A model generated the notes under the pieces. It made no database searches and was not told the DNA's origin. It saw only the letters and a program-made list of their open reading frames with translations. 64,000 bases of DNA from Escherichia phage vB_EcoS_I14: the sequence record PP892525.1. The stretch is one strand, 5' to 3'. Made by a program: the position numbers and the translations under genes. This document shows, one piece after another, positions 35,011 to 46,693 of this stretch (positions within the stretch are counted from its first letter, which is position 1; each line of letters begins with the position of its first letter).

Positions 35011-35181
35011 ATGAAATCAGTTGTAATTATTGGTGTTAACACTCGCGGTATTCGTACTACGAAAACTGTTAAAACTTCTAACGTTGCTGAGATCACTACG
35101 AACCCTAAAAAGTTTGATTTCGCCAAAGTCTCAGCAGTTATGACAGAACAATCTTTTAACCAAGCATTGGGGATGAAATAA
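35011..35181 (+). CDS. hypothetical small protein
   Basis: 56 codons from ATG 35011; not in the ORF track. Confidence 0.35.
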   Translation: MKSVVIIGVNTRGIRTTKTVKTSNVAEITTNPKKFDFAKVSAVMTEQSFNQALGMK

Positions 35182-35615
35182 TGGGTACGAATATGATTCG
35201 TGTGCTGCGAGAATTAATTGAAAAAGCTCGCAAACACGGTGATACTGTGTCAGTCAAGCACCTTAGTACGATTTTAGGTGACTTACAACGAATTGATAAA
35301 GATTGCGTATCTAGACTAGAGTTTACTAACTGGATTAAATCACAGTTCAAAGCAATTGAGAGTACAATGACTTCTGCTGCAAAAGCAAATATCGAGTATA
35401 CTCCAGATGCTGAATATCTCGACTTGTTAGCAGGTCTAGAGTATGAATATGCTCTAGAGCAGTTAACTGAAGTTCAGATTCGTGAGTATTTTGCAGAACT
35501 GGTTAAATTAAACCCAGGTATTACCAAAGCTCTATTAATGAAAACTATTAAGGCAGAATTTCCTGGACGTTATGACGGTAAAACAACTGCTTTGATTGCT
35601 AGTGAATTTTTCTAA
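35181..35615 (+). CDS. hypothetical protein
   Basis: 144 aa ORF. Confidence 0.5.
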   Translation: MGTNMIRVLRELIEKARKHGDTVSVKHLSTILGDLQRIDKDCVSRLEFTNWIKSQFKAIESTMTSAAKANIEYTPDAEYLDLLAGLEYEYALEQLTEVQIREYFAELVKLNPGITKALLMKTIKAEFPGRYDGKTTALIASEFF

Positions 35616-35623: not shown

Positions 35624-35652
35624 TTGCTAAATGCTTATAAATTCTGTATAAT
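35624..35652 (+). promoter_or_regulatory. sigma70-type promoter at the start of the tRNA/ncRNA region
   Basis: TTGCTA-17bp-TATAAT; no ORF follows for about 750 bp. Confidence 0.7.
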
Positions 35653-35718
35653 ATATTCATAAATTAGAGAGTAATTTCTATCTAATTTATAAATAGTGGG
35701 GTGTGGAAATCACTTATG

Positions 35719-35790
35719 TAGTAACACTGCCGTCCTAGTATAATTGGTATTATCAAGCCGTAACTGGTGGAAGATGTAGGTTCGAATCCT
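35719..35790 (+). tRNA. tRNA-like element, anticodon arm not foldable
   Basis: T-arm GTAGG-TTCGAAT-CCTAC and acceptor GCCGTCC/GGTCGGT with one mismatch; no convincing D or anticodon stem; no CCA. Confidence 0.3.
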
Positions 35791-36293
35791 ACGGTCGGTA
35801 AGAACTGGATAACTGATGCTTTTAACGTAAAAGCTTCCGAGGTTAGTTGCGCACTGCCTAAACCACGCGGTAGTTGGTTCCAGACTAACCAACCAGTCTG
35901 CTGAATAGTTTTATTACGATTTAACTATGTCCAGGCTAAAGAAGAACTTTAGAAGGTATTTCTAGGATAGTGAAGTTCTTTCTCCATATCGGAGTAGTTT
36001 TTCAAGCTATCCACAAAGTGGGAAATGCTGACATGAGAGATGTCACTAATGGTGCACAATAGCACAGGTAATTCGCGATAACTCCTGTTGAGTAGCAGCA
36101 AAAGGCGGGAAGTCATGACCCCAAGCCTAACCGAGTCCTCAATATACCGCAGGACATAACCACTAAGTCACCCTGACTTAAACTGGAAAATAATAGACGT
36201 TACTGTATTTTGTCTTGAAATACTTAATGAGTGAGACTTATGATTCTCCCGGTATCGTCTGTATTTTTAAGAGTTTTTACGAGAGTTCTTAAA

Positions 36294-36368
36294 AATACTT
36301 AAACGGGGTGTAGTCTAATGGAGAGGCAGGAGTCTTCTAAATTCCTTTATGCAGGTTCGAATCCTGTC
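36294..36368 (+). tRNA. tRNA-Arg(TCT), tentative
   Basis: Acceptor CGGGGTG/CACCTCG; anticodon stem GGAGT/ATTCC, loop CTTCTAA; T-arm GCAGG-TTCGAAT-CCTGT; CCA encoded; short D-arm. Confidence 0.55.
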
Positions 36369-36412
36369 ACCTCGGCCAATTTTATTAACTGTAACTAAAA
36401 CAAAGGAAACAT

Positions 36413-37360
36413 ATGTTTAATACTAAAAATATGAAAGAATTGACTTCTGAGCAGAAAGTAATTCGTACTATTAAACGTTGGGGTATTGGTGCTATAGTTG
36501 GTTTAGCAGGTTTAATCCTAGCTTTTAATTCGTATACCATTGTTTCTGATGGTACGGTTAAAACCCAAACATTCCTGGGTAAAGTAGACCCTAATCCAGT
36601 ATTACCTGGTTTCCATCTTGTAAACCCGTTTGCATCTTTCGATACTTTTAGTACAAAAGATATTGCTGTAAAATTAGATAAACTTCAGGTTCCTAGCCAG
36701 GATAAGTTTAAATCCACTGTTGACCTGACTGTTATGTTGCAGTTTGATGGTTCTAAGGCACCAATTAACCGTATTAACGCAGGTACTCAGGATCAAGCGT
36801 TAGACAAGTATGTAACTGAAAAATTACTGTCTACTATTCGTGAGTTTGGTAAGTCTGTACCTAAAGCACAAGATTTGTTTGATGCTAAAATTCAGGCTCA
36901 ATTGCAAACCGCAATTCAACAAGAAGTTGAAGAGTATGCACGCCCATATGGTTACACAGTTAAGCAGGTATTCCTTCAGGATATTACTCTACCACCAGTA
37001 ATCATGGAACAGGTACAGAATACCAAAGTTCGTGAAGAGCAAGTTAATGCTGCGAAAGCTGAATTGGCTCGTGTTGAACAGGAAGCACAGCAAAAAGTTA
37101 AACAAGCAGAAGCAGATCGTGAAGCTCGCAACAACCAAGCTATTGCTAATGAACGTGACGCAGATGCTAAACTGTACGCAGCTAAGAAAGAAGCTGAAGC
37201 TAACGCCGCACTGCAACGTACCATTACTCCTGAGATGATTCGTTGGAAACAACTGGAAGTTGAGATGATTCGTGCTCAGAAATATCAAGGTGGTGTACCG
37301 CAGACTGTGGTTGGCACTGGCTATGATGGCCAAATGATTATGGATATGCGTAATAAATAA
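36413..37360 (+). CDS. SPFH/band-7 (prohibitin/HflKC-like) membrane protein
   Basis: 315 aa; N-terminal TM segment, SPFH-like core, Ala/Glu/Gln-rich coiled coil. Confidence 0.7.
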   Translation: MFNTKNMKELTSEQKVIRTIKRWGIGAIVGLAGLILAFNSYTIVSDGTVKTQTFLGKVDPNPVLPGFHLVNPFASFDTFSTKDIAVKLDKLQVPSQDKFKSTVDLTVMLQFDGSKAPINRINAGTQDQALDKYVTEKLLSTIREFGKSVPKAQDLFDAKIQAQLQTAIQQEVEEYARPYGYTVKQVFLQDITLPPVIMEQVQNTKVREEQVNAAKAELARVEQEAQQKVKQAEADREARNNQAIANERDADAKLYAAKKEAEANAALQRTITPEMIRWKQLEVEMIRAQKYQGGVPQTVVGTGYDGQMIMDMRNK

Positions 37361-37383
37361 TACCCGCACGTAACATCTGAAGT

Positions 37384-37419
37384 GAGCCCTGCGTTCCCTG
37401 GAGAGCGCAGGGCTTTTCT
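37384..37419 (+). terminator. intrinsic terminator after the SPFH gene
   Basis: GAGCCCTGCG...CGCAGGGCT hairpin followed by TTTT. Confidence 0.7.
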
Positions 37420-37456
37420 ATATAATGTATTTGTAAATCTAACTAGGAGATCAAAT

Positions 37457-37975
37457 ATGAATGTTGATGAGCTAATACAGCACCTCTTATCTAGGGGATT
37501 TGATACAGATAAATATCATTGCTGGTTAAGTCCGGAAGGATGGCTAACAGTCCCGTTGTATGACTTCTCTGGGATGTTGAGAGGCTATCAGACTTATAAT
37601 CCTTCTGCTCCCAAAAGGCAGGGTAAGTGCCCATTTGAAGCTAAATATTTTACCCATTCTACTACACAGTGTGTATGGGGGCTAGAAACTCTCAATGGAG
37701 ATGAAAAAGTAGTATTGATTGCTGAATCTGTATTTAAGGCAGTTGCGTTACATAACGCTGGTTATCCCGCCCTAGCAATGTTGGGTTCTTCTCCGGGAAA
37801 AGCATTATTAAAGCAACTGAAATTACTACCTTTTAAATTGATAGCTATTGGTGACAATGATCCCGATGGTGAAAAATTTGCTAGAAAATTAAACGGCTTT
37901 GTTTCTCCCGTAGATGTGGATGAGATGTCTACCGAAAACTTGAAAAATTTTCTTGCTATGAAGCTAAATTTCTAA
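37457..37975 (+). CDS. hypothetical protein with Toprim-like motifs
   Basis: ATG 37457 after AGGAGA; VVLIAESVF and IAIGDNDPDGEKFA; the track ORF starts at 37382 inside the terminator. Confidence 0.45.
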   Translation: MNVDELIQHLLSRGFDTDKYHCWLSPEGWLTVPLYDFSGMLRGYQTYNPSAPKRQGKCPFEAKYFTHSTTQCVWGLETLNGDEKVVLIAESVFKAVALHNAGYPALAMLGSSPGKALLKQLKLLPFKLIAIGDNDPDGEKFARKLNGFVSPVDVDEMSTENLKNFLAMKLNF

Positions 37976-37981
37976 TATAAT
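37953..37981 (+). promoter_or_regulatory. sigma70-type promoter upstream of tRNA-Ser
   Basis: TTGCTA-17bp-TATAAT; -35 lies in the 3' end of CDS 37457-37975. Confidence 0.65.
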
Positions 37982-37994
37982 ATATCTTATAAAT

Positions 37995-38085
37995 TCGGAA
38001 GAATAGCATAACGGTATTGCAGCAGATTGCTAATCTGTCGGTTTGAAATATAGCCTTGTGGGTTCGATTCCCACTTCTTCCGCCA
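37995..38085 (+). tRNA. tRNA-Ser(GCT), type II
   Basis: Acceptor GGAAGAA/TTCTTCC; anticodon loop TTGCTAA; long variable arm; T-loop GTTCGATTC; CCA encoded. Confidence 0.7.
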
Positions 38086-38091
38086 GATTTT

Positions 38092-38169
38092 GGTTCTCAA
38101 GCTCATATGGTATGAGCACCCGGCTCATAACCGGAAGGTACGTAGGTTCGAATCCTCGGGGAGCCACCA
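38092..38169 (+). tRNA. tRNA with CAT anticodon (Met or Ile2), tentative
   Basis: Acceptor GGTTCTC/GGGAGCC; D-stem GCTC/GAGC; anticodon loop CTCATAA; T-stem has two mismatches; CCA encoded. Confidence 0.5.
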
Positions 38170-38385
38170 ATTAAATAGAGGTCACAAATGGATCTATATA
38201 TATAGTTTATGTTGTGTTTATCCAAGATAGAGAATACCCGGATGAATATAAAAAAGGATATAGGTTAGCCAGAGCTACTTCTGAAGCCCAAGCTATGGAT
38301 AAAGTGGCAGATTATATGATTACAGTAGAAAACGTACACTATATCGACTACCTTGAAGCCTCAAAAGTAATTGACTAAACTACAT

Positions 38386-38462
38386 GGGGGTGTAATCGAA
38401 TTGGCATAGGTACTGGACTTAAAATTCAGGTTTTGTGGGTTCGAATCCCACCACCCCTACCA
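38386..38462 (+). tRNA. tRNA, anticodon tentatively TAA (Leu)
   Basis: Acceptor GGGGGTG/CACCCCT; T-arm GTGGG-TTCGAAT-CCCAC; CCA encoded; D-arm unclear. Confidence 0.5.
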
Positions 38463-38477
38463 AATTAAGGAAATAAG

Positions 38478-38645
38478 ATGTATAGACATCCACCTCCGCC
38501 AACACGTCGTTCTAGAGAAGTTATCCTCATGGAATTAACTAAAAACTTCAAGGCAACTCTTGAAGATAGAGATCTAGGCACGGATGAAGACATTGATTTT
38601 ATTTGTAGACTACTAAAGATGAAACTGGAGAAACAACATGGCTAA
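38478..38645 (+). CDS. hypothetical small protein
   Basis: 55 codons from ATG 38478; not in the ORF track. Confidence 0.3.
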   Translation: MYRHPPPPTRRSREVILMELTKNFKATLEDRDLGTDEDIDFICRLLKMKLEKQHG

Positions 38646-38844
38646 TCCTGAAATTACCGCACAACGTTTCATGCTTAAAGGCATGATTGCTGAAGCAGGT
38701 ATGACTCAAGAGGTTGCAGACTTTCATAAGCAAATTCTTGATATTATAACTCTAGCTAAAGAGACTGGAGAAAAAGAGCACGCAGCAGCAATTATGGCTA
38801 TATCTCTTATTAGTCTAGACTTGGCTGAAGAATCTGGAGTTTAG
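38638..38844 (+). CDS. hypothetical protein
   Basis: 68 aa ORF. Confidence 0.4.
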   Translation: MANPEITAQRFMLKGMIAEAGMTQEVADFHKQILDIITLAKETGEKEHAAAIMAISLISLDLAEESGV

Positions 38845-38874
38845 CTCCTCCAAACAGAATTTTTAAAAATGTAC

Positions 38875-38904
38875 TTGCCTTTTGCTTTAAATTTCTGATA
38901 TAAT
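38875..38904 (+). promoter_or_regulatory. sigma70-type early promoter
   Basis: TTGCCT-18bp-TATAAT, then TATAAATTGATGAAGGAG. Confidence 0.65.
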
Positions 38905-38934
38905 AGTTATATAAATTGATGAAGGAGTTAACGA

Positions 38935-39210
38935 ATGCAAAATCGTGTTGTAGCAGCTGGTATTGAAAGTGCAATCTGTAAATCCTGGGAAGGCTGGGAA
39001 GGTGAGATTGAATGGCTTTATTTCTACGATGTAGAACTTCTTCCAGAAGTTAAAGCTAAATGTGTTGAAGCTGGCATGGCTCCAGATGCAAAAGCTGATA
39101 TTGATATTTCAATGTCTGAACTTAAAGGTCGTGTAATTACTGTTGGTGATGAGGGCGAAGAAGTTTTCGAACTTCCGTTCTCCTTAACTGTCACTCCTAA
39201 GTTCGACTAA
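38935..39210 (+). CDS. hypothetical protein
   Basis: 91 aa ORF. Confidence 0.5.
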   Translation: MQNRVVAAGIESAICKSWEGWEGEIEWLYFYDVELLPEVKAKCVEAGMAPDAKADIDISMSELKGRVITVGDEGEEVFELPFSLTVTPKFD

Positions 39211-39246
39211 CTAATACAGCACTGAGCAAGTTCTTTAAAATTTGAC

Positions 39247-39275
39247 TTGCTCAGTGCCTTAAAACTTGGTATAAT
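39247..39275 (+). promoter_or_regulatory. sigma70-type promoter upstream of tRNA-Tyr, overlapped by a 12-bp inverted repeat
   Basis: TTGCTC-17bp-TATAAT; perfect inverted repeat GCACTGAGCAAG/CTTGCTCAGTGC (39220-39257) spans the -35. Confidence 0.6.
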
Positions 39276-39338
39276 AGTTATCTAATTTGGAAACATATTT
39301 AAAAGTGTTTAAACTAATATTTGAATACTTTTAAATAT

Positions 39339-39426
39339 GGGCGTTTATTCCGTAAGTGGTAGCGGAGGGGATTGTAAATCCCTGGTCATTGCGACTCGAG
39401 TGGTTCGACTCCATTAACGCCCACCA
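39339..39426 (+). tRNA. tRNA-Tyr(GTA), type II
   Basis: Acceptor GGGCGTT/AACGCCC; anticodon stem GGGGA/TCCCT, loop TTGTAAA; long variable arm; CCA encoded. Confidence 0.7.
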
Positions 39427-39443
39427 AATTAAAGGTAAAGGAT

Positions 39444-39935
39444 ATGTATATTGATAGGATAATTCAAGAAGCTGCAAATAGGGGTATTATACAGTTAGGT
39501 TCACCCGCTGATATAAACAAAGATCTAATATTAGAGAGCCTCACATTTGGTACAGCTAACTTTGGTCGCGATAGTAATCGTCGGTATAGTTTGAAGTTAT
39601 CTGCTCTATCTTTTATCAAGTATAACAAAAGTATTGGAGAAAAATCCAGCTGTGGTTTTATTTATGCAATAACTAACCCAGCTTGGGATAACTATGTAAA
39701 AATTGGTATGTCTTCTGATCCTAAAACAAGATTAGGAAATTACCAGACTTACTCTCCTTTACGTGATTATAAGTTAATACATTGGTCATTTTGGTTTAAT
39801 GCTAGAGAAGCTGAGAAAATGCTTCATAATAGCTTTCCCGAACGGCTTAATGAATGGGTAGTATTAGATAGAAGTGTAGATGAAATACTTTCTGAGTTTA
39901 ATAATCTATCCAATAAACAATTTAAGTCCTGTTAG
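39444..39935 (+). CDS. T5orf172/GIY-YIG-like domain protein (homing-endonuclease-like)
   Basis: 163 aa; motif GFIYAITNPAWDNYVKIGMSSDPKTRLGNYQT; lies between tRNA genes. Confidence 0.55.
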   Translation: MYIDRIIQEAANRGIIQLGSPADINKDLILESLTFGTANFGRDSNRRYSLKLSALSFIKYNKSIGEKSSCGFIYAITNPAWDNYVKIGMSSDPKTRLGNYQTYSPLRDYKLIHWSFWFNAREAEKMLHNSFPERLNEWVVLDRSVDEILSEFNNLSNKQFKSC

Positions 39936-40002
39936 ACAAACTGGTAAAGTCACTACCCTTTCAAGGTAGGGTTTGTGGGTTCGATCCCCGCACAGGACGC
40001 CA
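39926..40002 (+). tRNA. tRNA-Glu(TTC)
   Basis: Acceptor GTCCTGT/ACAGGAC; anticodon stem CTACC/GGTAG, loop CTTTCAA; CCA encoded; 5' end overlaps the stop of CDS 39444-39935. Confidence 0.65.
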
Positions 40003-40010
40003 ATTTCTGC

Positions 40011-40087
40011 ATTCCTAGAGTGTTACTGGACAGCATGTCGGTCTCCAAAACCGTACGGTCTAGGTTCGAGTCCTAGTAGGTTTGCCA
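40011..40087 (+). tRNA. tRNA-Trp(CCA), tentative
   Basis: Anticodon loop CTCCAAA; T-arm CTAGG-TTCGAGT-CCTAG; CCA encoded; acceptor has two U-U mismatches. Confidence 0.45.
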
Positions 40088-40093
40088 AAATTT

Positions 40094-40168
40094 GCACCTT
40101 TAGCTGAGATGGATTAGCGCTTGCCTGAAGAGCTTGAGAGGTTCGTTCGATACGAACAGGGTGCACCA
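40094..40168 (+). tRNA. tRNA-Phe(GAA), tentative
   Basis: Acceptor GCACCTT/AGGGTGC; D-stem GCTG/TAGC; anticodon loop CTGAAGA with weak stem; T-arm GTTCG-TTCGATA-CGAAC; CCA encoded. Confidence 0.55.
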
Positions 40169-40185
40169 AATTGAAGGAGCTGCTG

Positions 40186-40458
40186 ATGCATCCTGAAAAC
40201 TTCTTTATTTACTGCGCTGATAAGTCGCTAAAACGTAGAATTAACAAAGTCTATCATTATCGTGCTAGTCAACAGCCTTATGTATATGCTTTTGACGGTG
40301 ATCACATTCCACTAGAACAATTATCTTGTGATTACATGATATTGAAGAACTTTGACGAGACGAAGATCTCAAGCGTTCACAATCGACAGAATCCATTAAC
40401 GTGGAAATATAAGAAGAAAAAGAAAGGAATCAAATTCTTAAAAAATGTAGTTGCTTAG
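40186..40458 (+). CDS. hypothetical protein
   Basis: ATG 40186 after AAGGAG; the track ORF begins at TTG 40171. Confidence 0.4.
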   Translation: MHPENFFIYCADKSLKRRINKVYHYRASQQPYVYAFDGDHIPLEQLSCDYMILKNFDETKISSVHNRQNPLTWKYKKKKKGIKFLKNVVA

Positions 40459-40479
40459 TTTCCAAAAGTTCTGTATAAT
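40451..40479 (+). promoter_or_regulatory. sigma70-type early promoter
   Basis: TTGCTT-17bp-TATAAT. Confidence 0.7.
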
Positions 40480-40508
40480 AATTACATAAATTGAACTGGA
40501 GAAGCAAC

Positions 40509-40733
40509 ATGACAGAACAAGAATTGAATGAACGTAAGCTGGTAATGCTTCGCTTACTAAATATTTTCTCTGGTATGGACGGTGGAATTGACTTTGTTCA
40601 TCTACGTTCTTTCGTAGAAGAAGCCGAAGGCGAATCTATCACTAAAATCCTTAAACACATGGGATTACTTTTAGATGCTGCTAATGTGGCTACTGAATAT
40701 AAACTAGAAGATCTACCGGAGCGTGTTAAATGA
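40509..40733 (+). CDS. hypothetical protein
   Basis: ATG 40509 after GGAGAAG, downstream of promoter 40451-40479. Confidence 0.45.
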   Translation: MTEQELNERKLVMLRLLNIFSGMDGGIDFVHLRSFVEEAEGESITKILKHMGLLLDAANVATEYKLEDLPERVK

Positions 40734-40921
40734 AACGATTAGTTAGATTTAAGTGTTGTGGTTCTGAACATATTTTCACACATCTTCGTGAATTTAAAAT
40801 GTGTGATTGTGGTAAATCAGGCTATGACTCAGGAGATGGGTTCTACGCCCGTACTCTAGGGAACTTCAATGATCTAGAATTTGAAGATCTCGAAAAGCAA
40901 GATAAATCGACCGTTGGCTGA
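40730..40921 (+). CDS. hypothetical Cys-rich small protein
   Basis: 63 aa; CCGSEH...CDCG; 3' end overlaps tRNA-Cys. Confidence 0.4.
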   Translation: MKRLVRFKCCGSEHIFTHLREFKMCDCGKSGYDSGDGFYARTLGNFNDLEFEDLEKQDKSTVG

Positions 40922-40983
40922 ATGGCTTAGGCGAAGGATTGCAAATCCTTTTTATGTGAGTTCAAATCTCATGCGGTCGTCCA
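40908..40983 (+). tRNA. tRNA-Cys(GCA)
   Basis: Acceptor CGACCGT/GCGGTCG; anticodon stem AAGGA/TCCTT, loop TTGCAAA; T-loop TTCAAAT; CCA encoded; overlaps the 3' end of CDS 40730-40921. Confidence 0.7.
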
Positions 40984-40990
40984 AATTTTA

Positions 40991-41073
40991 GGGTCGTTAG
41001 CCAAGCGGTTTGGCGGCGGATTGTTAATCCGTGTCGAAAGACAACGTAGGTTCGAATCCTACACGGCCCGCCA
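40991..41073 (+). tRNA. tRNA-Asn(GTT) with extended variable region, tentative
   Basis: Acceptor GGGTCGT/ACGGCCC; D-stem GCCA/TGGC; anticodon stem GCGGA/TCCGT, loop TTGTTAA; CCA encoded. Confidence 0.6.
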
Positions 41074-41175
41074 AATTCTGTGTAGAGTTAAGTAAACCGG
41101 TAGCCAACCAGCTATCATTGCTGACATCGAATTCAGCCACAGATACCATTTTCATTAATAACTGAGGAAACAAGC

Positions 41176-41361
41176 ATGTCCAAGAATGTAATTGCACAGT
41201 TAGAAGTTCATCGTGATAACACAGCTAATAACATTAAGTGCCGACAAAAAGATATTGAAGCTCGAAAGGCTGATCTTTTAATGAGTATTCGAGAGCTTAA
41301 TGTACGAAAAGAGTTTCTTAAAGAACTTAATGCAGCTATTGAAAAACTCAAAGCTGAGTAA
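41176..41361 (+). CDS. hypothetical protein
   Basis: 61 aa ORF. Confidence 0.4.
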   Translation: MSKNVIAQLEVHRDNTANNIKCRQKDIEARKADLLMSIRELNVRKEFLKELNAAIEKLKAE

Positions 41362-41370
41362 ATGAATTAT

Positions 41371-41447
41371 GCGACCGGGGCTGGCTTGGTAATGGTACTC
41401 CCCTGTCACGGGAGGGAATGTGGGTTCAAATCCCATCGGTCGCGCCA
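41371..41447 (+). tRNA. tRNA-Asp(GTC)
   Basis: Perfect acceptor GCGACCG/CGGTCGC; anticodon stem CTCCC/GGGAG, loop CTGTCAC; T-loop TTCAAAT; CCA encoded. Confidence 0.75.
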
Positions 41448-41473
41448 AACTAAACTAGCACGAGAAATATGAT

Positions 41474-41821
41474 ATGGTTAATGCTAAAGAAGAATTGTTA
41501 CTTGCCCTAAAGAATACTAATTCTGAAGTTAAGTGTATTAAGATAGAATTCGGTTATTATGGGGACAAAGAAGTTTGGGTATTACCCATAGGTTATACAG
41601 AAAAAGATATTGAAGATTTTCTAAATAATCTAGACTTTAAATATGATTCTGGTTTCGGTGGACAATTGCTTTATGGTAACGTATGGTTTACTGATGGAAC
41701 TTGGTTAGAACGTGGTGAATACGACGGTTCTGAATGGTGGGAATATAAGGCTACACCAGCAATCCCAGAAGAATGCCGAACAATTAATGGTGAAGTAGAT
41801 CGTACTTTACTATTAAATTAA
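41474..41821 (+). CDS. hypothetical protein
   Basis: 115 aa ORF. Confidence 0.5.
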   Translation: MVNAKEELLLALKNTNSEVKCIKIEFGYYGDKEVWVLPIGYTEKDIEDFLNNLDFKYDSGFGGQLLYGNVWFTDGTWLERGEYDGSEWWEYKATPAIPEECRTINGEVDRTLLLN

Positions 41822-42213
41822 CAAAATTTCAGTGCAGAACACGGAGCTAGCAATTCGGAAGTGCTGACTCATGATAAGCTGCCTATGTACTTGCGAAGCG
41901 GTCGTGTCCAAGACTCGGACTCTTGCACTGAAAACAATCAAACATTCTAGCGTGGTTGATGGGGAAACCAGCTTGGCTAGGGCAGAAGCTCGTTCGATTC
42001 GAGTGAAAGAATGGTTCTCGTAAGTCCGCACAAGTGATAGCAGGTTCGAGTCCTGTCTAGAATGACACTATAAAGTTTACTTATTATGTAGGTTCCGATA
42101 GATCGGCGGGTCTATTCTGGCATTTAAGAGAAGTCTCGCAAACTTTTTTGTCAGCCGTGGGGTTGGTAGCCTCCAGGTGGCCTACACAATAAGTAAATTT
42201 ATTAAAAATTCAT

Positions 42214-42242
42214 TTGCTATTCTGCTTTATTATCTGTATAAT
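42214..42242 (+). promoter_or_regulatory. sigma70-type early promoter
   Basis: TTGCTA-17bp-TATAAT, then TATAAAGTGAAGAGAAGG. Confidence 0.7.
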
Positions 42243-42274
42243 ATATTTTATAAAGTGAAGAGAAGGAAAGCAAA

Positions 42275-42433
42275 ATGAAACACAAGATAGCTCAAGTCTT
42301 TATGGCATTATGGTGTATGCCAATAGCTATAACAGCATTTAATCTAGATACTTTTACTATAGAAGAAAAATATATCGGATTAGTTAGCGGCTTTAGTATG
42401 CTGGGCTTATCTTTGCTGTGGTTAAAGAAATAA
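42275..42433 (+). CDS. hypothetical small membrane protein
   Basis: 52 codons after promoter 42214-42242; hydrophobic; not in the ORF track. Confidence 0.35.
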   Translation: MKHKIAQVFMALWCMPIAITAFNLDTFTIEEKYIGLVSGFSMLGLSLLWLKK

Positions 42434-42437
42434 TATT

Positions 42438-42515
42438 CTCCGTGTAGCTCAGTTTGGCCAGAGCGTTTCGTCTGGAGCGATAGGGTCGGGGGTTCAAATC
42501 CTCCCACGGAGACCA
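42438..42515 (+). tRNA. tRNA-Pro(TGG), tentative
   Basis: Acceptor CTCCGTG/CACGGAG; D-stem GCTC/GAGC; anticodon loop TCTGGAG; T-arm GGGGG-TTCAAAT-CCTCC; CCA encoded. Confidence 0.55.
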
Positions 42516-42521
42516 AATAAT

Positions 42522-42599
42522 TGCGGGTTAGATCTCTGGTAGAGATCGCTAGTCTCATAAGCTAGAAAGAGGTAGGTTCGATTCCTGCACCCGCTTCCA
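42522..42599 (+). tRNA. tRNA with CAT anticodon and unpaired 1-72 (initiator-like Met), tentative
   Basis: Acceptor TGCGGGT/ACCCGCT with U-U at position 1-72; D-stem GATC/GATC; anticodon stem CTAGT/GCTAG, loop CTCATAA; CCA encoded. Confidence 0.55.
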
Positions 42600-42619
42600 T
42601 TTTAATAGAGGATTTCGAA

Positions 42620-42787
42620 ATGAAAGTATTTCGATTAGTAGTAAGTGACAAACGCTTAGGTAAGAATACATCAAAATCCTTACTTGCTCATTATGGTAGA
42701 AATTGGGATGAAGTAATGGCAGAGTTTAGTACTAATCACCCTTACTTGAAAGTTCACTCTATTAAAGAAGTATACAATGGTTACTAA
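42620..42787 (+). CDS. hypothetical small protein
   Basis: 55 codons between tRNA genes; not in the ORF track. Confidence 0.3.
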   Translation: MKVFRLVVSDKRLGKNTSKSLLAHYGRNWDEVMAEFSTNHPYLKVHSIKEVYNGY

Positions 42788-42788
42788 T

Positions 42789-42867
42789 AGATCGCTAGCT
42801 CAATAGGTTTAGTAGCATCCGACTTTTAATCGGAAGGTTCTGGGTTCGAGTCCCAGGCGATCTACCA
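42789..42867 (+). tRNA. tRNA-Lys(TTT)
   Basis: Perfect acceptor AGATCGC/GCGATCT; anticodon stem TCCGA/TCGGA, loop CTTTTAA; T-arm CTGGG-TTCGAGT-CCCAG; CCA encoded. Confidence 0.75.
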
Positions 42868-42871
42868 AATT

Positions 42872-42945
42872 GCTCGGTTAGTTTAATGGGAGAACCCCGT
42901 CTTTACACGGCGGTTGCGATAGTTCGATTCTATCACCGAGTACCA
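42872..42945 (+). tRNA. tRNA-Val(TAC)
   Basis: Acceptor GCTCGGT/ACCGAGT; anticodon stem CCGTC/GGCGG, loop TTTACAC; T-arm GATAG-TTCGATT-CTATC; CCA encoded. Confidence 0.7.
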
Positions 42946-42964
42946 ATTAACTCAAAATAAGGAA

Positions 42965-43324
42965 TTGCAAATGCAATTATCAAGCAAGGTTCAAGGCTAT
43001 TTCGGTCATGTAACAATGGAGTTCGCTATCTCTAAAGGTTGGGACTTCGAACAAGATTTAGCTGAGTTCTACAAAGATATTGATCTGAACGTACCATATA
43101 TGGGACTTTCTACTGGTCAGGAGATCACAGAAGCCGATGTATTCAAGGCAAGTCAAGGTGAGGTAACACCTAGTTTTGCCGAGTTCTGGTTAGGCATTAC
43201 GTTAAAAGAAGATGCACCAGATAGTGGTGTACTAATGTCTAGTTTGCACTCTGGAAGTTCCGATTACCTTTTCATTAGCGATGTTAAGGAAATACAAGAA
43301 GTCTGCAAAAATGTACTTGCTTGA
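42965..43324 (+). CDS. hypothetical protein
   Basis: 119 aa ORF. Confidence 0.5.
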   Translation: MQMQLSSKVQGYFGHVTMEFAISKGWDFEQDLAEFYKDIDLNVPYMGLSTGQEITEADVFKASQGEVTPSFAEFWLGITLKEDAPDSGVLMSSLHSGSSDYLFISDVKEIQEVCKNVLA

Positions 43325-43345
43325 TGCTTAATTTCTTGTTATAAT
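43317..43345 (+). promoter_or_regulatory. sigma70-type promoter preceding an ORF-free segment and tRNA-Ala
   Basis: TTGCTT-17bp-TATAAT; -35 overlaps the end of CDS 42965-43324. Confidence 0.7.
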
Positions 43346-43583
43346 ATTTATATAAATTGATGAGGATTTCTCCTCATCATAGTTCACTAAGGTATTAGCT
43401 CGACCTAGGACTGGCTGCCAAAAAGCACGATCCCTACGATTCGGGAGAAGTTCTAGATTAGTCCACTAGATTCAGCGGCAACTGAATAGTGTATTGGGTT
43501 TGCGAGATGACGCGGTTCCTTCCGCTCGAAGCGAAGGTGCTGTAGTTACGCCGAGCTAATAGCCTTAGTAAACTAAAGAATTT

Positions 43584-43657
43584 GGGGATATAGTTTAATG
43601 GTAGAACATCTGCTTTGCACGCAGAAGACGAGGGTTCAACTCCCTCTTTCTCCACCA
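43584..43657 (+). tRNA. tRNA-Ala(TGC)
   Basis: Acceptor GGGGATA/TTTCTCC with G3-U70; anticodon stem TCTGC/GCAGA, loop TTTGCAC; T-arm GAGGG-TTCAACT-CCCTC; CCA encoded. Confidence 0.7.
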
Positions 43658-43663
43658 AAATTC

Positions 43664-43748
43664 GGGGCTATGCTGGAACTGGTAGACAATACGGCCTTAG
43701 ATTCCGTAGCTTAAATGCGTGGGAGTTCGAGTCTCCCTAGCCCCACCA
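43664..43748 (+). tRNA. tRNA-Leu(TAG), type II
   Basis: Perfect acceptor GGGGCTA/TAGCCCC; anticodon loop CTTAGAT; long variable arm; T-loop GTTCGAGTC; CCA encoded. Confidence 0.7.
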
Positions 43749-43764
43749 ACTTATAGGGTAATGT

Positions 43765-44349
43765 ATGCAGTTTGTACCAATAAAAGATGCACCAGGGTAT
43801 TTAGTAAATGAAACAGGGGATGTGTTATCTACATTTACTAATAAAATTTTATCAAGATATATAGTTGATGGATACCCTGCTGTAAAATTACAGATAAATG
43901 GTAAGCAAACTTCGGTACTTATACACCGAATTATTTCTCATGTATTTGGGGACTTATATAATCTATTTGACCCTGAATTAGAAGTAGATCACAAGGATAG
44001 AGATAGGCTGAATCTATCTAAAGATAATCTTCAAGTTTTATCAAAAATAGAACATCAGAAGAAAACTAATAAAGATAATGGATGGTCTGATAGTAGAGTA
44101 CCTTGCCCCTTATGTGGAAATCTAATGCTTCAGAGATCAGTAACATGTACAAATTGTAAGCCAAAACCTACAGGAAAGTTAATAAAACCAGAGTTGTCCT
44201 TAGAAGACATAACTGAAAAGGTTTTATTAATGGGGTGGGTTAAGGCAGCTAAAGATCTAGAAGTATCAGAGTCCACTTTACGTAGACGATATACTAAACT
44301 AACCGGATTAAGCCCAAAAGTATTAACAGAACAACGGAAAAGCAAATAG
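43765..44349 (+). CDS. HNH homing endonuclease
   Basis: 194 aa; HNH motif VDHKDRDRLNLSKDNLQVL; C-terminal HTH-like tail; within tRNA cluster. Confidence 0.75.
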   Translation: MQFVPIKDAPGYLVNETGDVLSTFTNKILSRYIVDGYPAVKLQINGKQTSVLIHRIISHVFGDLYNLFDPELEVDHKDRDRLNLSKDNLQVLSKIEHQKKTNKDNGWSDSRVPCPLCGNLMLQRSVTCTNCKPKPTGKLIKPELSLEDITEKVLLMGWVKAAKDLEVSESTLRRRYTKLTGLSPKVLTEQRKSK

Positions 44350-44429
44350 ACTGGTGACTAAACCCGATTGGAAATCGGTTGAGTGGTAGCAATACCGCCT
44401 TATGGGTTCAACTCCCATCTTTTCCGCCA
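44336..44429 (+). tRNA. tRNA-Ser(GGA), type II
   Basis: Perfect acceptor GGAAAAG/CTTTTCC; anticodon loop TTGGAAA; long variable arm; CCA encoded; 5' end overlaps the stop of the HNH gene. Confidence 0.65.
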
Positions 44430-44441
44430 AACAATTTATAT

Positions 44442-44536
44442 GGTAGGTCAATCCAACGGCTGGCGCTGGACTCCGACTTGAAATCGGTTGATCGTAGTGA
44501 TACGGTGTAAGGGTTCGATCCCCTTACCTACCTCCA
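44442..44536 (+). tRNA. tRNA-Ser(TGA), type II
   Basis: Perfect acceptor GGTAGGT/ACCTACC; anticodon loop CTTGAAA; T-arm AAGGG-TTCGATC-CCCTT; CCA encoded; unusually long (95 nt). Confidence 0.6.
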
Positions 44537-44902
44537 AATCTTGAAGTATGCCGGAATCGGTAGACGGGGCTGCCTAAAAGGTTTATAGGGAACATCCACT
44601 CCCTGCAACATACCTCATAAAGCGGCTGAGATAAATGGTCTATCTCGTGAAGGTTCAAGTCCTTCTGCTTCTTGATACATCTATGGCTCAAAGTGTAACG
44701 GTGCTATTTGATGCTCTTGGTAAGACTTCCCCGACATGCGTTCGGGAGTAAGCTGCTAAGGCTAGGGTAGAAGAGTTTCTGAGAGCCGCCACAATTGAAA
44801 ATTCGTACTCGTCTTGAGCTGCGTGCAATAGGAGATAACTTGATTAGTATTCTAGAACATGCTAATTGAGGAAGGTTTCGCTAACCCTGCGAGTTTTCAA
44901 TT

Positions 44903-44979
44903 GTGGCTATATCATAATTGGTTAATGATCCTGATTGTGAATCAGGCCTATGTGGATTCGAATTCCACTAGCCACCCCA
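44903..44979 (+). tRNA. tRNA-His(GTG)
   Basis: Perfect acceptor GTGGCTA/TAGCCAC; anticodon stem CCTGA/TCAGG, loop TTGTGAA; T-arm GTGGA-TTCGAAT-TCCAC; CCA encoded. Confidence 0.75.
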
Positions 44980-45003
44980 AATTAACTTAAATAGGAAATA
45001 AAT

Positions 45004-45198
45004 ATGGCTGATTTCTGCAAACAATGCTCCATTGATATGTGGGGCAGAGATACTGGTGATCTTTCTGGTTTGATTACAGAAGCTGAAGTTAAAGAAGGCT
45101 ACGGTGCTGTTGTGGTTTGCGAAGGATGCGGAGTTATTCGAGTAGATCATGAAGGCAAACGTTTGGAAGAATCTGAGCCAACAACGATTTTTCCGTAG
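45004..45198 (+). CDS. hypothetical zinc-ribbon-like small protein
   Basis: 64 aa; CKQC...CEGCG. Confidence 0.45.
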   Translation: MADFCKQCSIDMWGRDTGDLSGLITEAEVKEGYGAVVVCEGCGVIRVDHEGKRLEESEPTTIFP

Positions 45199-45214
45199 AA
45201 TAAGATGAAATTAT

Positions 45215-45290
45215 TGGGATGTAGATCAATTGGCAGATCGTCGGTTTCTGACATCGAAGGTTCCACGTTCGATCCGTGGCATCCCAGCCA
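45215..45290 (+). tRNA. tRNA-Gln(CTG)
   Basis: Acceptor TGGGATG/CATCCCA (U1-A72); D-stem GATC/GATC; anticodon loop TTCTGAC; T-arm CCACG-TTCGATC-CGTGG; CCA encoded. Confidence 0.75.
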
Positions 45291-45296
45291 AACAAT

Positions 45297-45371
45297 TGGA
45301 AAGTAGTGTAATGGTTAGCACTGGAGATTTTGAATCTCTTAGTTAGGGTTCGAATCCCTACTTTCCTGCCA
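45297..45371 (+). tRNA. tRNA-Gln(TTG), tentative
   Basis: Acceptor TGGAAAG/CTTTCCT with 1-72 mismatch; anticodon stem GGAGA/TCTCT, loop TTTTGAA; T-arm TAGGG-TTCGAAT-CCCTA; CCA encoded. Confidence 0.6.
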
Positions 45372-45377
45372 ATTTAC

Positions 45378-45452
45378 GCGTGATTAGTTCAGTGGCTAGA
45401 ATAACTGGCTTCCAACCAGTAGACACGAGTTCGACTCTCGTATCCCGCACCA
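45378..45452 (+). tRNA. tRNA-Gly(TCC)
   Basis: Acceptor GCGTGAT/ATCCCGC (one mismatch); anticodon stem ACTGG/CCAGT, loop CTTCCAA; T-arm ACGAG-TTCGACT-CTCGT; CCA encoded. Confidence 0.65.
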
Positions 45453-45469
45453 ATTTTTAAGGAAACGTT

Positions 45470-45691
45470 ATGCACGTTTTTGAATTTCGTAATAAAAGTA
45501 CCGATAAACGAGTTATTGTTATTGGAGAAACATACCGAGCATACGAACAAACTGACGGCTCTGTTATCTTGAATGACGAGAAAGGAGGTTTTAGCTTTTA
45601 TCCCAAAGAAACTTACGAAGAATTTCGTACAAAGTTTCTTCTACCAGACTGGCTAGAAGTAGCGCAGCAACGAGAACCCGAAGATGGCTGA
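45470..45691 (+). CDS. hypothetical protein
   Basis: 73 aa ORF. Confidence 0.45.
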   Translation: MHVFEFRNKSTDKRVIVIGETYRAYEQTDGSVILNDEKGGFSFYPKETYEEFRTKFLLPDWLEVAQQREPEDG

Positions 45692-45848
45692 TAACCTAAA
45701 AGTCAAGATCGATAAACAAAAGAAACGTGTAGAAGTAGAGATTGGTGAAGAACGTGTAGCCTTCACCTTTGAATTTCTACAACAAATGGCAATGACAGTT
45801 ATGACTGATAAGTCTCCTGTTATTGAAAAAGAAATCCCGTTAAAATAA
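45684..45848 (+). CDS. hypothetical small protein
   Basis: 54 codons; ATGGCTGA overlap with upstream stop; not in the ORF track. Confidence 0.3.
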   Translation: MADNLKVKIDKQKKRVEVEIGEERVAFTFEFLQQMAMTVMTDKSPVIEKEIPLK

Positions 45849-45856
45849 CGGGATCT

Positions 45857-45943: not shown

Positions 45944-45957
45944 ACTTAAGGACTAGT

Positions 45958-46125: not shown

Positions 46126-46133
46126 AAATTCAT

Positions 46134-46692: not shown

Positions 46693-46693
46693 T

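What the first reader, a model, noticed from the sequence alone, without database searches (positions are those of the whole stretch)
35653..36293. Promoter-driven ORF-free segment of about 640 nt containing a tRNA-like element with no anticodon arm
A strong promoter (35624-35652) is followed by no ORF until 36413. The segment holds a T-arm/acceptor element (35719-35790) that cannot form a canonical anticodon stem, then about 500 nt with local hairpins (for example CAGACT-AACCAACC-AGTCTG near 35870), then a tRNA-Arg-like gene. This pattern suggests one or more stable non-coding RNAs co-transcribed with tRNAs; my recollection, unverified here, is that T5 encodes small stable RNAs in its tRNA region.
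Basis: partly seen in the sequence, partly recalled or inferred. Interest (0 to 1): 0.65.

Follow-up and report, generated by a model that had tools for sequence, protein, structure and literature searches.

The report
T5 "RNAX": large structured phage RNA
The ORF-free stretch is the counterpart of "RNAX", a roughly 650-base non-coding RNA already annotated in phage T5 with no known function; comparison with relatives shows a conserved fold with a clamped tRNA look-alike and a short hairpin motif that also recurs in unrelated RNA viruses.

Summary
A sigma-70/T5-type promoter (35624-35652) is followed by about 650 nt with no conserved ORF, then tRNA-Arg(TCT) at 36304-36378. The tRNA-like element is real but lies at 35729-35800, not 35719-35790.

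The window is a T5-like phage (Tequintavirus). The homologous interval in the T5 RefSeq record is already annotated as misc_RNA "rnaX / RNAX, stable RNA with unknown functions".

New here:
- The RNA is conserved across Markadamsvirinae, Sugarlandvirus and a Pectobacterium phage. It runs from about 650 to about 1,300 nt and is mosaic in its middle and 5' parts.
- Compensatory base changes strongly support a fold in which a 12-bp helix clamps a cloverleaf. That cloverleaf has normal acceptor, D and T arms but a non-decoding "anticodon" arm.
- Further covarying hairpins and a nearly invariant 3' hairpin follow. There is no coding signal and no Rfam family other than tRNA.
- A 21-nt hairpin-plus-tail motif (36166-36186) recurs in at least 18 unrelated virus contig families. 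Those checked are (+)RNA viruses, and all copies are sense-strand and intergenic. Its layout resembles the "coremin" exonuclease-resistant motif, but it fails that motif's loop rule.

Function remains inferred: most likely a stable tRNA-mimicking RNA released from a co-transcript with tRNA-Arg.

The parts
35624..35652 (+). Early sigma-70/T5-type promoter (TTGCTA-17-TATAAT). The transcription start is inferred near 35659.
   Evidence: Consensus scan, 10 of 12 matches. Aligned to annotated promoters in AKFV33 and T5 'P 16-17'.
35659..35690 (+). 5' hairpin (AUAAAUUAGA...UCUAAUUUAU). It is the closing stem of a 5' domain that is deleted in this phage. Most relatives carry 147-370 extra nt in its loop.
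   Evidence: MFE fold. Alignment with phiP4. The stretch between promoter and leader comes in classes of 49, 196, 211, 228 and 411-417 nt.
35695..35704 (+). Invariant G-rich leader AGUGGGGUGU, a candidate long-range pairing partner for either 36247-36251 or 36154-36163.
   Evidence: Invariant in all homologues. Two alternative RNAalifold partners, neither resolved by covariation.
35709..35722 (+). 5' strand of clamp helix H1.
   Evidence: 12 bp, 100% paired in 25 sequences, 5 pairs with compensatory change. 13 of 14 pairs are kept in DU_PP_V, with 4 further compensatory changes.
35729..35800 (+). tRNA-like cloverleaf. Acceptor stem 35729-35/35793-99, with conserved U5:U68 and G1:U/A72 mismatches. 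D stem 35738-41/35750-53. Short 3-4 bp stem 35757-59/35766-68 with a 6-nt loop GUAACU in place of an anticodon arm. T arm 35776-80/35788-92.
   Evidence: Rfam tRNA 35.5 bits with the anticodon arm skipped. Covariation in every arm. In relatives the anticodon arm is replaced by a long rod or by a 5-bp stem with a 3-nt loop.
35804..35817 (+). 3' strand of clamp helix H1.
35818..35834 (+). Hairpin H2 (GCUUUU-AACGU-AAAAGC).
   Evidence: 100% paired, 2 covarying pairs: GCUUC/GAAGC, GCUUAU/AUAAGC, GGUUC/GAACC.
35835..36103 (+). Central mosaic domain. It contains the conserved CUAAACCACG (35858-35867) and the hairpin 36029-36034/36040-36045.
   Evidence: Blocks are present or absent by lineage. Group alifold model. 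The hairpin at 36029-36045 changes G-C to C-G and A-U to G-C in T5.
36104..36127 (+). Helix 36104-06/36125-27 enclosing the invariant GRAGUCAUGACC.
   Evidence: 2 of 3 outer pairs covary. The motif is conserved even in DU_PP_V.
36135..36155 (+). Hairpin GUCCU...AGGAC.
   Evidence: 2 covarying pairs, 98.8% paired.
36166..36186 (+). Motif AGUCA-CCC-UGACU-UAAACUGG, a hairpin plus conserved tail with a coremin-like layout.
   Evidence: Single exact match in the window, 0 expected by chance. Invariant in the T5-like homologues aligned in A4 and variant in DU_PP_V. Recurs in 18 unrelated viral contig families, always intergenic and sense-strand. A reversed-sequence control gives 3 hits against 45.
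36187..36260 (+). Variable 3' spacer, found in three lineage-specific versions. It contains a promoter-like site at 36215-36244.
   Evidence: Alignments. Promoter scan.
36261..36298 (+). 17-bp 3' hairpin, nearly invariant in sequence. It lies 5 nt upstream of tRNA-Arg, or upstream of an inserted ORF in relatives.
   Evidence: Alignment A5 of 17 variants including DU_PP_V. One covarying pair, U-A to C-G. BLAST conservation to Sugarland and Pectobacterium phages.
36304..36378 (+). tRNA-Arg(TCT), inferred to be co-transcribed. Its RNase P site would define the RNAX 3' end.
   Evidence: ARAGORN. Rfam 52.3 bits.

Best explanation
The interval encodes the orthologue of phage T5 RNAX, a large (about 645 nt here), structured, non-coding RNA.

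It is made from an early host-RNA-polymerase promoter as one transcript with tRNA-Arg, and probably also with the downstream SPFH-protein gene. Inferred maturation: RNase P cutting at the 5' end of tRNA-Arg frees RNAX. The nearly invariant 17-bp hairpin is then left 5 nt from the new 3' end, where it would block 3' exonucleases.

The conserved core has four parts:
- a G-rich leader;
- a tRNA-shaped module, with normal acceptor, D and T arms (the tRNA 'elbow') and no decoding anticodon loop, held at the tip of a 12-bp clamp helix formed by its own flanks;
- several covarying hairpins separated by invariant single-stranded motifs;
- a hairpin-plus-tail motif laid out like the coremin roadblock of RNA viruses.

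Most likely mode of action (inferred): the stable RNA acts in trans as a tRNA mimic that docks to and titrates a tRNA-binding host or phage factor. Candidates are processing or modification enzymes, or tRNA-targeting defence nucleases. The other modules would give stability and further binding sites.

Shown here: homology to annotated rnaX, non-coding nature, and the conserved fold. Not shown: expression, processing sites, the partner, and the phenotype.
For: Identity:
- 92-99% DNA identity to Tequintavirus genomes. The T5 record annotates the same interval as rnaX.

Non-coding:
- No conserved ORF and no codon periodicity.

Structure:
- 5' domain: 94% of 857 pair cells are paired. 14 pairs carry compensatory changes, against 0-2 when the partners are slid by 1-3 columns. 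0 of 500 shuffles reach the observed values.
- G-U pairs in H1 fit the + strand only, because they would be A-C on the other strand.
- A covariance model built without DU_PP_V finds its homologue at 86.5 bits, E 1e-18. There the clamp helix keeps 13 of 14 pairs with 4 new compensatory changes.
- 3' domain: 4 covarying pairs, 99.7% paired.

Non-decoding tRNA mimic:
- The anticodon arm is a 3-4 bp stem with a 6-nt loop, or a long rod, or a 5-bp stem with a 3-nt loop, depending on lineage. Acceptor, D and T arms stay under selection.

Transcription unit:
- Promoter at 35624-35652, and the first terminator-like site on the + strand only at 37384-37415.

The 3' hairpin stays attached to the RNA when ORFs are inserted between it and tRNA-Arg.
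Against: - No expression, stability or processing data were available. 'Stable RNA' is only a GenBank annotation, and no paper on RNAX was found.
- In Eps7-like phages the whole tRNA-like module is replaced by an unrelated hairpin, while the clamp and H2 remain. tRNA mimicry is therefore dispensable in some lineages.
- The clamp helix pairs the 5' leader with the 3' trailer of the cloverleaf, which argues against release of a free tRNA-sized species and may hinder RNase P.
- The 5' domain is absent here but is 147-370 nt longer in most relatives, so a large part of the family's structure is not needed in this phage.
- No partner protein is identifiable from the sequence.
Confidence: 0.6

Rival explanations
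1. RNAX is mainly a precursor. RNase P, RNase E and RNase III cut it at the tRNA-like module and the hairpins into several small stable RNAs, like T5 RNAI/RNAIII or T4 species 1 and 2 RNAs. Any function would reside in those pieces, with the tRNA-like module serving as a processing signal (tRNA punctuation, as at the MALAT1/mascRNA junction).
For: T5 annotates many small stable and tRNA-like RNAs in the same region. The RNA is modular and mosaic, with blocks swapped independently between lineages. The tRNA elbow is the feature RNase P recognises (established knowledge).
Against: The 12-bp clamp H1 pairs leader with trailer, so fragments would stay base-paired. Candidate long-range helices link the 5' leader to the 3' domain. 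T5 annotators describe one 719-nt species.
Confidence: 0.2
2. RNAX belongs functionally with the giant ornate phage RNAs (GOLLD, ROOL): a self-assembling RNA-only scaffold or cage that displays or encloses tRNA(-like) elements.
For: It is large (650-1,300 nt), phage-encoded and ORF-free, lies at the edge of a tRNA island, and carries an embedded tRNA-like unit. It has invariant anchor motifs separated by variable, mosaic stretches, loosely like GOLLD's conserved 3' and variable 5' regions. These are the properties reported for GOLLD and ROOL (PMC12286853, PMC5737381).
Against: No Rfam match to GOLLD or ROOL even at E <= 10. No evidence of oligomerisation. Much of the RNA is dispensable or mosaic between close relatives.
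Confidence: 0.1
3. The segment is a cis-acting leader that controls the level, processing or stability of the downstream tRNA-Arg and SPFH-protein mRNA. The hairpin-plus-tail motif would act as a roadblock to 5'-end-dependent decay.
For: It lies in the same transcription unit, with no terminator before 37384. In other virus contigs the motif sits just upstream of coat-protein ORFs or ribosome-binding sites.
Against: The downstream neighbour varies. ORFs are inserted between RNAX and tRNA-Arg in Epseptimavirus, and T5.080 is absent from some loci. A 650-1,300 nt covarying multi-domain RNA with a tRNA mimic is far more than a leader needs.
Confidence: 0.07
4. The segment is non-functional debris: a decayed tRNA gene plus intergenic filler or a degraded protein gene.
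For: ARAGORN fails to call the tRNA-like element in the window. Several genome records annotate it as tRNA-OTHER or pseudo-tRNA, or place small hypothetical ORFs over it.
Against: Compensatory changes across three viral subfamilies or genera, invariant motifs, no codon periodicity, and stop codons in the ORFs.
Confidence: 0.03

Closest known systems
Phage T5 RNAX (rnaX, T5s08; NC_005859 40848-41566). Also annotated in BF23, Salmonella phage 5 and DT571/2.
   Same: Orthologous locus with the same promoter, leader, tRNA-like module, motifs, 3' hairpin and downstream tRNA-Arg and T5.080. About 92% identity over the alignable part.
   Different: T5 carries an 87-nt insertion that duplicates the hairpin-plus-tail motif. 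T5's acceptor stem has A5-U68 where the window has U5:U68. Most other Tequintaviruses have an extra 147-162 nt 5' domain that both the window and T5 lack.
GOLLD and ROOL large ornate RNAs of phages and prophages.
   Same: Size class, phage origin, position next to tRNA islands, a tRNA(-like) unit embedded in the RNA, and unknown function (PMC12286853, PMC5737381).
   Different: No sequence or structure match in Rfam. Different hosts (T5-like phages of Enterobacteria). Assembly state unknown.
Coremin exoribonuclease-resistant motif of plant and fungal RNA viruses (GUCCGAAGACGUUAAACUAC plus hp2; PMC10520033).
   Same: A GUC...GAC hairpin followed by a conserved U-U-A-A-A-C-U tail and then another hairpin. 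About 20 nt with sequence-level conservation. Occurs in intergenic regions and 3' UTRs of RNA viruses, sometimes in tandem copies.
   Different: The loop is (A)CCY(U), or UACGCAU in DU_PP_V, not YGAD or YGNNAD. Pentaloops were inactive in the coremin context. The tail ends in CUGG, not CUAC. Resistance was never tested. E. coli has no Xrn1-type enzyme (established knowledge).
tRNA-like modules of bacterial Y RNAs (YrlA) and viral or cellular tRNA-like structures such as mascRNA (from my own knowledge, not checked in papers here).
   Same: A tRNA elbow (acceptor, T and D arms) with a defective anticodon arm, mounted on a longer helix within a larger RNA.
   Different: No Rfam hit to any such family. 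No Ro/Rsr gene nearby. Partner unknown.
Small stable RNAs co-transcribed with phage tRNAs: T5 RNAI, RNAIII, RNA1-3, and T4 species 1 and 2 RNAs (from my own knowledge).
   Same: Located in the phage tRNA region, driven by early promoters, function unknown.
   Different: RNAX is 5-7 times longer and multi-domain. The covariance-model search found no paralogue of its 5' domain elsewhere in the window.

Membership tests
T5 RNAX (rnaX) family | Lies between the T5.081 homologue with its promoter and tRNA-Arg/T5.080. | tested here: met
   ORF map. Annotations of AKFV33, phiP4, SA001 and T5.
T5 RNAX (rnaX) family | Sequence homology to the annotated rnaX. | tested here: met
   91.7% identity over 590 nt plus 97.6% over 255 nt to T5. 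BLAST hits fall on features annotated 'rnaX: RNAX'.
T5 RNAX (rnaX) family | Accumulates as a stable RNA in infected cells. | not testable with these tools
   Only the GenBank note 'stable RNA with unknown functions'. No paper found.
tRNA (RF00005) | Acceptor, D and T arms of a cloverleaf. | tested here: met
   35.5 bits against a gathering threshold of 29. Covariation in all three arms.
tRNA (RF00005) | 5-bp anticodon stem with a 7-nt anticodon loop. | tested here: not met
   The Rfam alignment skips the arm. The comparative model gives 3-4 bp plus a 6-nt loop. Other lineages have a long rod or a 3-nt loop. ARAGORN makes no call in the window.
GOLLD / ROOL | Match to the family covariance model. 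| tested here: not met
   No hit at E <= 10 in the window. None in phiP4 at E <= 10, nor in the Sugarland, Stitch and 26175III versions at E <= 1.
GOLLD / ROOL | Large (>500 nt) phage RNA next to a tRNA island. | tested here: met
   645 nt here and up to about 1,300 nt in relatives. 24 tRNA genes called by ARAGORN from 36304 to 46942, the first directly abutting the RNA.
GOLLD / ROOL | Homo-oligomeric RNA-only assembly. | not testable with these tools
   Requires biophysics or cryo-EM.
Coremin xrRNA | hp1 loop of consensus YGAD, or YGNNAD for hexaloops. | tested here: not met
   The loop is CCC, or ACCCU if the A-U pair is open. The rule is taken from PMC10520033.
Coremin xrRNA | Conserved spacer (GUUAAACUAC) after hp1, then hp2. 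| tested here: inconclusive
   The spacer UUAAACUGG shares UUAAACU. A following hairpin is present in many but not all instances, and its register varies.
Coremin xrRNA | Stalls a 5'-3' exoribonuclease. | not testable with these tools
   Needs an in-vitro Xrn1 or RNase J assay.
YrlA (bacterial Y RNA) | Match to the Rfam model, and linkage to a Ro/Rsr gene. | tested here: not met
   No Rfam hit. Neighbouring genes are the T5.081-084 and T5.080 homologues.

The most novel reading that the evidence does not exclude
RNAX may found a third class of giant ornate phage RNAs alongside GOLLD and ROOL. Its conserved core would combine a clamped, non-decoding tRNA-elbow mimic with a coremin-like hairpin-plus-tail module. 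That module, AGUCA-CCY-UGACU-WWAACUGG, would be a mobile, self-contained RNA device (a mechanical roadblock to nucleases or ribosomes, or a docking site) shared between a DNA phage of enterobacteria and many (+)RNA viruses. If so, it would be the first xrRNA-like element seen in a bacteriophage.
Probability: 0.2. Interest if true: 0.85.

Novelty: already known. Interest (0 to 1): 0.5.

Why it matters
As a feature it is not new: T5 annotators flagged it as rnaX two decades ago. But it has no Rfam family and no function, I found no published structure in the literature searched, and many genome records annotate it wrongly as pseudo-tRNA or small ORFs.

The comparative fold derived here makes it experimentally tractable in the best-studied T5 system. 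It consists of a clamped tRNA mimic, invariant motifs and a 3' cap hairpin.

It matters for two current questions. The first is what phage tRNA islands and their companion RNAs do in the arms race with tRNA-targeting defence systems. The second is whether large ornate phage RNAs are a wider phenomenon than GOLLD and ROOL.

The 21-nt motif shared with RNA viruses, if functional, would link bacterial and eukaryotic virus RNA biology.

Tried and rejected
- Known RNA family: Rfam was run at gathering and at permissive E-values on the window, on relatives and on motif-bearing contigs. Only tRNA hits appeared.
- Protein-coding or pseudogene: rejected.
- tmRNA: ARAGORN finds none.
- Canonical tRNA with an odd anticodon: rejected, because three different non-decoding arms occur across lineages.
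- Small leader hairpin (35701-35713): it needs two different registers in different lineages and conflicts with H1, which covaries. Dropped in favour of H1.
- Class-3 (tombus/polerovirus) xrRNA as the identity of the motif: the published ST9a sequence is unrelated.
- Hammerhead-like CUGAUG at 35813: not conserved.
- Chance as the explanation for the motif recurrences: rejected by a reversed-sequence control (3 hits against 45), by chance-level, in-ORF hits in 596 Gbp of cellular genomes, and by the clean split of 18 intergenic CCY/WW clusters from 13 others, 11 of which lie in ORFs.
- tRNA linkage of the motif outside T5-like phages: none found.
- Paralogues of the 5' domain in the window: none.
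- Literature on RNAX: nothing in the searchable library.
- The central domain (35835-36103) and the long-range partner of the G-rich leader could not be resolved, because the alignment is mosaic there.
Full report
**What the window is.** The 1-kb region around the finding matches 438 phage genomes by megablast, nearly all T5-like phages of Escherichia and Salmonella. The best match is Salmonella phage SA001 at 99%. ARAGORN finds 24 tRNA genes between 36304 and 46942, which is the T5 tRNA island. The finding lies at its upstream edge, between a T5.081 homologue (35181-35615) and tRNA-Arg(TCT) (36304-36378). A T5.080 SPFH/"lipoprotein" homologue follows at 36413-37360.

**Checking the observation.**
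- The promoter-like site TTGCTA-17-TATAAT at 35624-35652 is the best in the region, with 10 of 12 consensus matches. It aligns with promoters annotated in AKFV33 and T5.
- No ORF longer than 45 aa (+ strand) or 60 aa (- strand) lies between 35615 and 36413.
- The Rfam tRNA model hits 35729-35800 at 35.5 bits, above its threshold of 29, but its alignment jumps over the anticodon arm. ARAGORN makes no call there in the window.
The segment ends at 36303, not 36293.
- The quoted CAGACT/AGTCTG repeat is present at 35881-35900.

**It is already annotated.** In the T5 RefSeq record the homologous interval (40848-41566, minus strand) is a misc_RNA named rnaX/RNAX, "stable RNA with unknown functions". 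It lies between "promoter P 16-17" and tRNA-Arg. Seven other stable RNAs are annotated across the T5 tRNA region. The same rnaX feature appears in the BF23, Salmonella phage 5 and DT571/2 records. I found no paper describing RNAX in the searchable library, so the claim of stability rests on the database note alone. Many other records annotate the interval as tRNA-OTHER, tRNA-Ser, tRNA-Sec, tRNA-Pro or small hypothetical proteins.

**Not coding.** Across 45 distinct homologues, variable columns are spread evenly over the three codon phases (130/131/129). The only plus-strand ORF of note (35767-35904, annotated as orf078 in AKFV33) has stop codons in Stitch, FZ41, SE3 and the Sugarland group.

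**Distribution and anatomy.**
- Homologues occur in 525 GenBank phage records. The records examined belong to Tequintavirus, Epseptimavirus and Sugarlandvirus.
- A diverged copy occurs in Pectobacterium phage DU_PP_V (Mccorquodalevirinae), with the same gene order.
- The locus is mosaic. From the G-rich leader to the 3' hairpin the RNA is 570-890 nt.
- The stretch between promoter and leader is 49 nt here and in T5. It is 196-211 nt in most Tequintaviruses, 228 nt in Stitch and 411-417 nt in Sugarlandviruses. In some Epseptimaviruses a homing-endonuclease ORF replaces it.
- The window therefore carries a minimal version of about 645 nt, from an RNA family that reaches about 1,300 nt.
- Invariant anchors recur in all lineages: AGUGGGGUG, GAUAACU, CUAAACCACG, GRAGUCAUGACC, AACCAC, AGUCACCYUGACUWWAACUGG and the 3' hairpin.

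**The 5' domain fold.**
- RNAalifold on 18 gap-free sequences predicted that the leader (35709-35722) pairs with the sequence just after the cloverleaf (35804-35817). This forms a 12-bp clamp helix H1 with the tRNA-like module at its tip, followed by hairpin H2 at 35818-35834.
- Counting on 25 sequences gave 94% of 857 pair cells paired. 14 pairs carry compensatory changes, against 0-2 when partners are slid by 1-3 columns, and 0 of 500 shuffles reach the observed values. H1 and H2 are 100% paired.
- The D stem covaries (U-A to G-C, A-U to U-A), as do the T stem (2 pairs) and the acceptor stem.
- The acceptor keeps a U5:U68 mismatch in most sequences. It becomes A-U in T5 and U-A in L023. The 1:72 pair is G:U or G:A.
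- G-U pairs in H1 indicate that the + strand is the one under selection.
- DU_PP_V was not used to build the model. It keeps 13 of 14 H1 pairs with four new compensatory changes and keeps both acceptor mismatches. The covariance model finds it at 86.5 bits, E 1e-18, and finds no second copy in the window.

**The "anticodon arm".**
- In the window it is a 3-4 bp stem (35757-59/35766-68) with a 6-nt loop, one nucleotide out of the tRNA register. It has a C-G to G-C covariation.
- In Sugarland-type phages and one Tequintavirus-like metagenome contig it is a long rod with an inner hairpin that itself covaries (GGGG/CCCC against GGAGAU/AUCUCC).
- In DU_PP_V it is a 5-bp stem with a 3-nt loop.
- In Eps7-like phages the whole cloverleaf is replaced by another hairpin, while H1 and H2 stay.
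- The module is thus a selected tRNA-elbow mimic that does not decode, and it is dispensable in some lineages.

**The rest of the RNA.**
- The full 645-nt transcript has an MFE z-score of -3.5.
- In the 3' domain, helix 36104-06/36125-27 encloses GRAGUCAUGACC, and it covaries together with hairpin 36135-39/36151-55. There are 4 pairs with compensatory changes, 99.7% of cells paired, and 0 of 500 shuffles as high.
- The hairpin at 36029-36045 shows two compensatory changes in T5.
- The 17-bp 3' hairpin (36261-36298) is almost invariant in sequence across 17 variants, including DU_PP_V, with one U-A/C-G covariation. It stays with the RNA when ORFs are inserted before tRNA-Arg.
- The central domain and the long-range partner of the G-rich leader could not be settled, because the alignment is mosaic there.
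- No Rfam family other than tRNA matches any version.

**A recurrent motif.**
- The 21-nt AGUCA-CCC-UGACU-UAAACUGG (36166-36186) is invariant in the T5-like group. T5 carries two copies.
- Exact-pattern scans with three free positions found it in IMG/VR and metagenome contigs well beyond T5-like phages.
- A reversed-sequence control gave 3 IMG/VR hits against 45.
- A scan of 596 Gbp of cellular genomes gave 10 hits, 9 of them inside ORFs and with random letters at the free positions.
- The non-T5 hits fall into 31 clusters. Eighteen have a CCY loop and a WW spacer. All of these are intergenic, on the strand carrying most of the long open frames in nearly every case. One (L052) lies in a short overlapping frame between the polymerase and coat genes.
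- Of the other 13 clusters, 11 lie inside ORFs and look like chance hits.
- The contigs tested are (+)RNA viruses: RdRP_4 with a protease and an S-domain coat, RdRP_3 with a coat, and an RdRP_2-like polyprotein with a coat. The motif sits just upstream of the coat ORF or in the 3' UTR.
- A few other contigs have it directly upstream of a ribosome-binding site.
- The layout is a GUC...GAC hairpin, a UUAAACU tail and then another hairpin. This recalls the coremin Xrn1-resistant motif GUCCGAAGACGUUAAACUAC plus hp2. Coremin is also found in intergenic regions and 3' UTRs and can stall scanning ribosomes (PMC10520033).
- The loop does not fit the YGAD/YGNNAD rule, so it is not a coremin member by that definition.
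- It is unrelated to the class-3 xrRNA of ST9a.
- DU_PP_V has AGUC-UACGCAU-GACU-UUAAAAACUGAG at the same place.

**How it most likely works.**
- Shown: a conserved, non-coding, multi-domain RNA gene on the + strand, orthologous to T5 rnaX.
- Inferred: transcription from the early promoter through tRNA-Arg, with the first terminator-like site on the + strand at 37384-37415. RNase P then releases the RNA at 36303/36304, leaving the invariant hairpin as a 3' cap.
- Inferred: the clamped tRNA elbow docks to a tRNA-binding factor and acts as a mimic or sponge. The hairpin-plus-tail motif and other modules would add stability or further contacts.
- Rivals: a precursor for several small RNAs, a GOLLD/ROOL-like assembling scaffold, a cis-acting leader, and debris. 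These are weighed in the Rival explanations section.
- GOLLD and ROOL are the nearest functional analogues. They are large phage RNAs near tRNA islands, and tRNAs are sometimes embedded in GOLLD (PMC12286853, PMC5737381). The membership test by covariance model failed.

**Verdict.** As a feature it is already known, being annotated as rnaX in T5. Its fold, family range and shared motif are, as far as I could find, undescribed, and its function is open. Interest is moderate (0.5). The most novel reading not excluded is a third class of giant ornate phage RNA carrying an xrRNA-like module shared with RNA viruses. I put that at about 0.2 probability.

Noticed in passing
window 36166-36186; loci L047, L049, L050, L052, L054, L055, L061-L063, L067, L068, L083, L084, L088, L091, L099, L102-L105, L110, L111: The 21-nt motif AGUCACCYUGACUWWAACUGG recurs in at least 18 unrelated contig families outside T5-like phages. 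All copies are intergenic or in a 3' UTR, nearly all on the main coding strand. Those checked are (+)RNA viruses. The layout is coremin-like, but the loop rule is not met.
   Followed up: yes
L068, L084, L103 (1.4-1.6 kb metagenome contigs); L067: These motif-bearing contigs have essentially no open frame of 120 aa or more on either strand. Three of them are related to each other. They could be large non-coding RNAs or UTR fragments of RNA replicons.
   Followed up: no
L004 (T5) about 12986-13051; L089: T5 and one metagenome relative carry an 87-nt insertion that duplicates the hairpin-plus-tail motif, as GUCACCUUGACAUAAACUGG.
   Followed up: partly
L002 1672-1828 (phiP4) and most Tequintaviruses; L008, L010, L015: A G+C-richer 5' domain of 147-370 nt begins GAACAGCGAGCCGAUUACGCUGA. 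It sits in the loop of the window's 5' hairpin (35659-35690) and is deleted in the window, T5, AKFV33, SA001 and Gostya9. It has no Rfam match.
   Followed up: partly
L013 717-1199, L014 717-1199; L006, L007, L013, L014 (ORF of about 510 nt before tRNA-Arg); L012 1444-1986: A homing-endonuclease ORF replaces the 5' domain in some Epseptimaviruses. A 169-aa ORF is inserted between the RNAX 3' hairpin and tRNA-Arg. The RNA gene appears to be a hotspot for mobile insertions.
   Followed up: partly
L001 1769-1906 (AKFV33 orf078); L014 1285-1781 (IrmaTschudi bas28_0081/82); L015 1338-2069; L016 1356-1958: Hypothetical-protein CDSs in several GenBank records lie on top of the conserved RNA and are probably mis-annotations.
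   Followed up: partly
window 38092-38166: Rfam calls a tRNA here at 40.3 bits that ARAGORN misses. By position it corresponds to T5 tRNA-Ile2(CAU), next to tRNA-Ser(GCU).
   Followed up: no
window 36215-36244: A promoter-like site (TTGAAA-18-TATGAT, 10 of 12 matches) lies inside the lineage-specific 3' spacer of RNAX. It could give tRNA-Arg its own start.
   Followed up: no
window 37384-37415: A strong terminator-like hairpin (13 bp, 8 G-C, T-run) follows the T5.080 homologue. It probably marks the end of the RNAX-tRNA-Arg-T5.080 transcription unit.
   Followed up: no
L119 2008-2153: The 5'-domain covariance model also scores 40.8 bits on DU_PP_V tRNA-Arg together with the flanking 3' hairpin. 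This is probably the tRNA core plus A/U-rich flanks, not a second copy.
   Followed up: no
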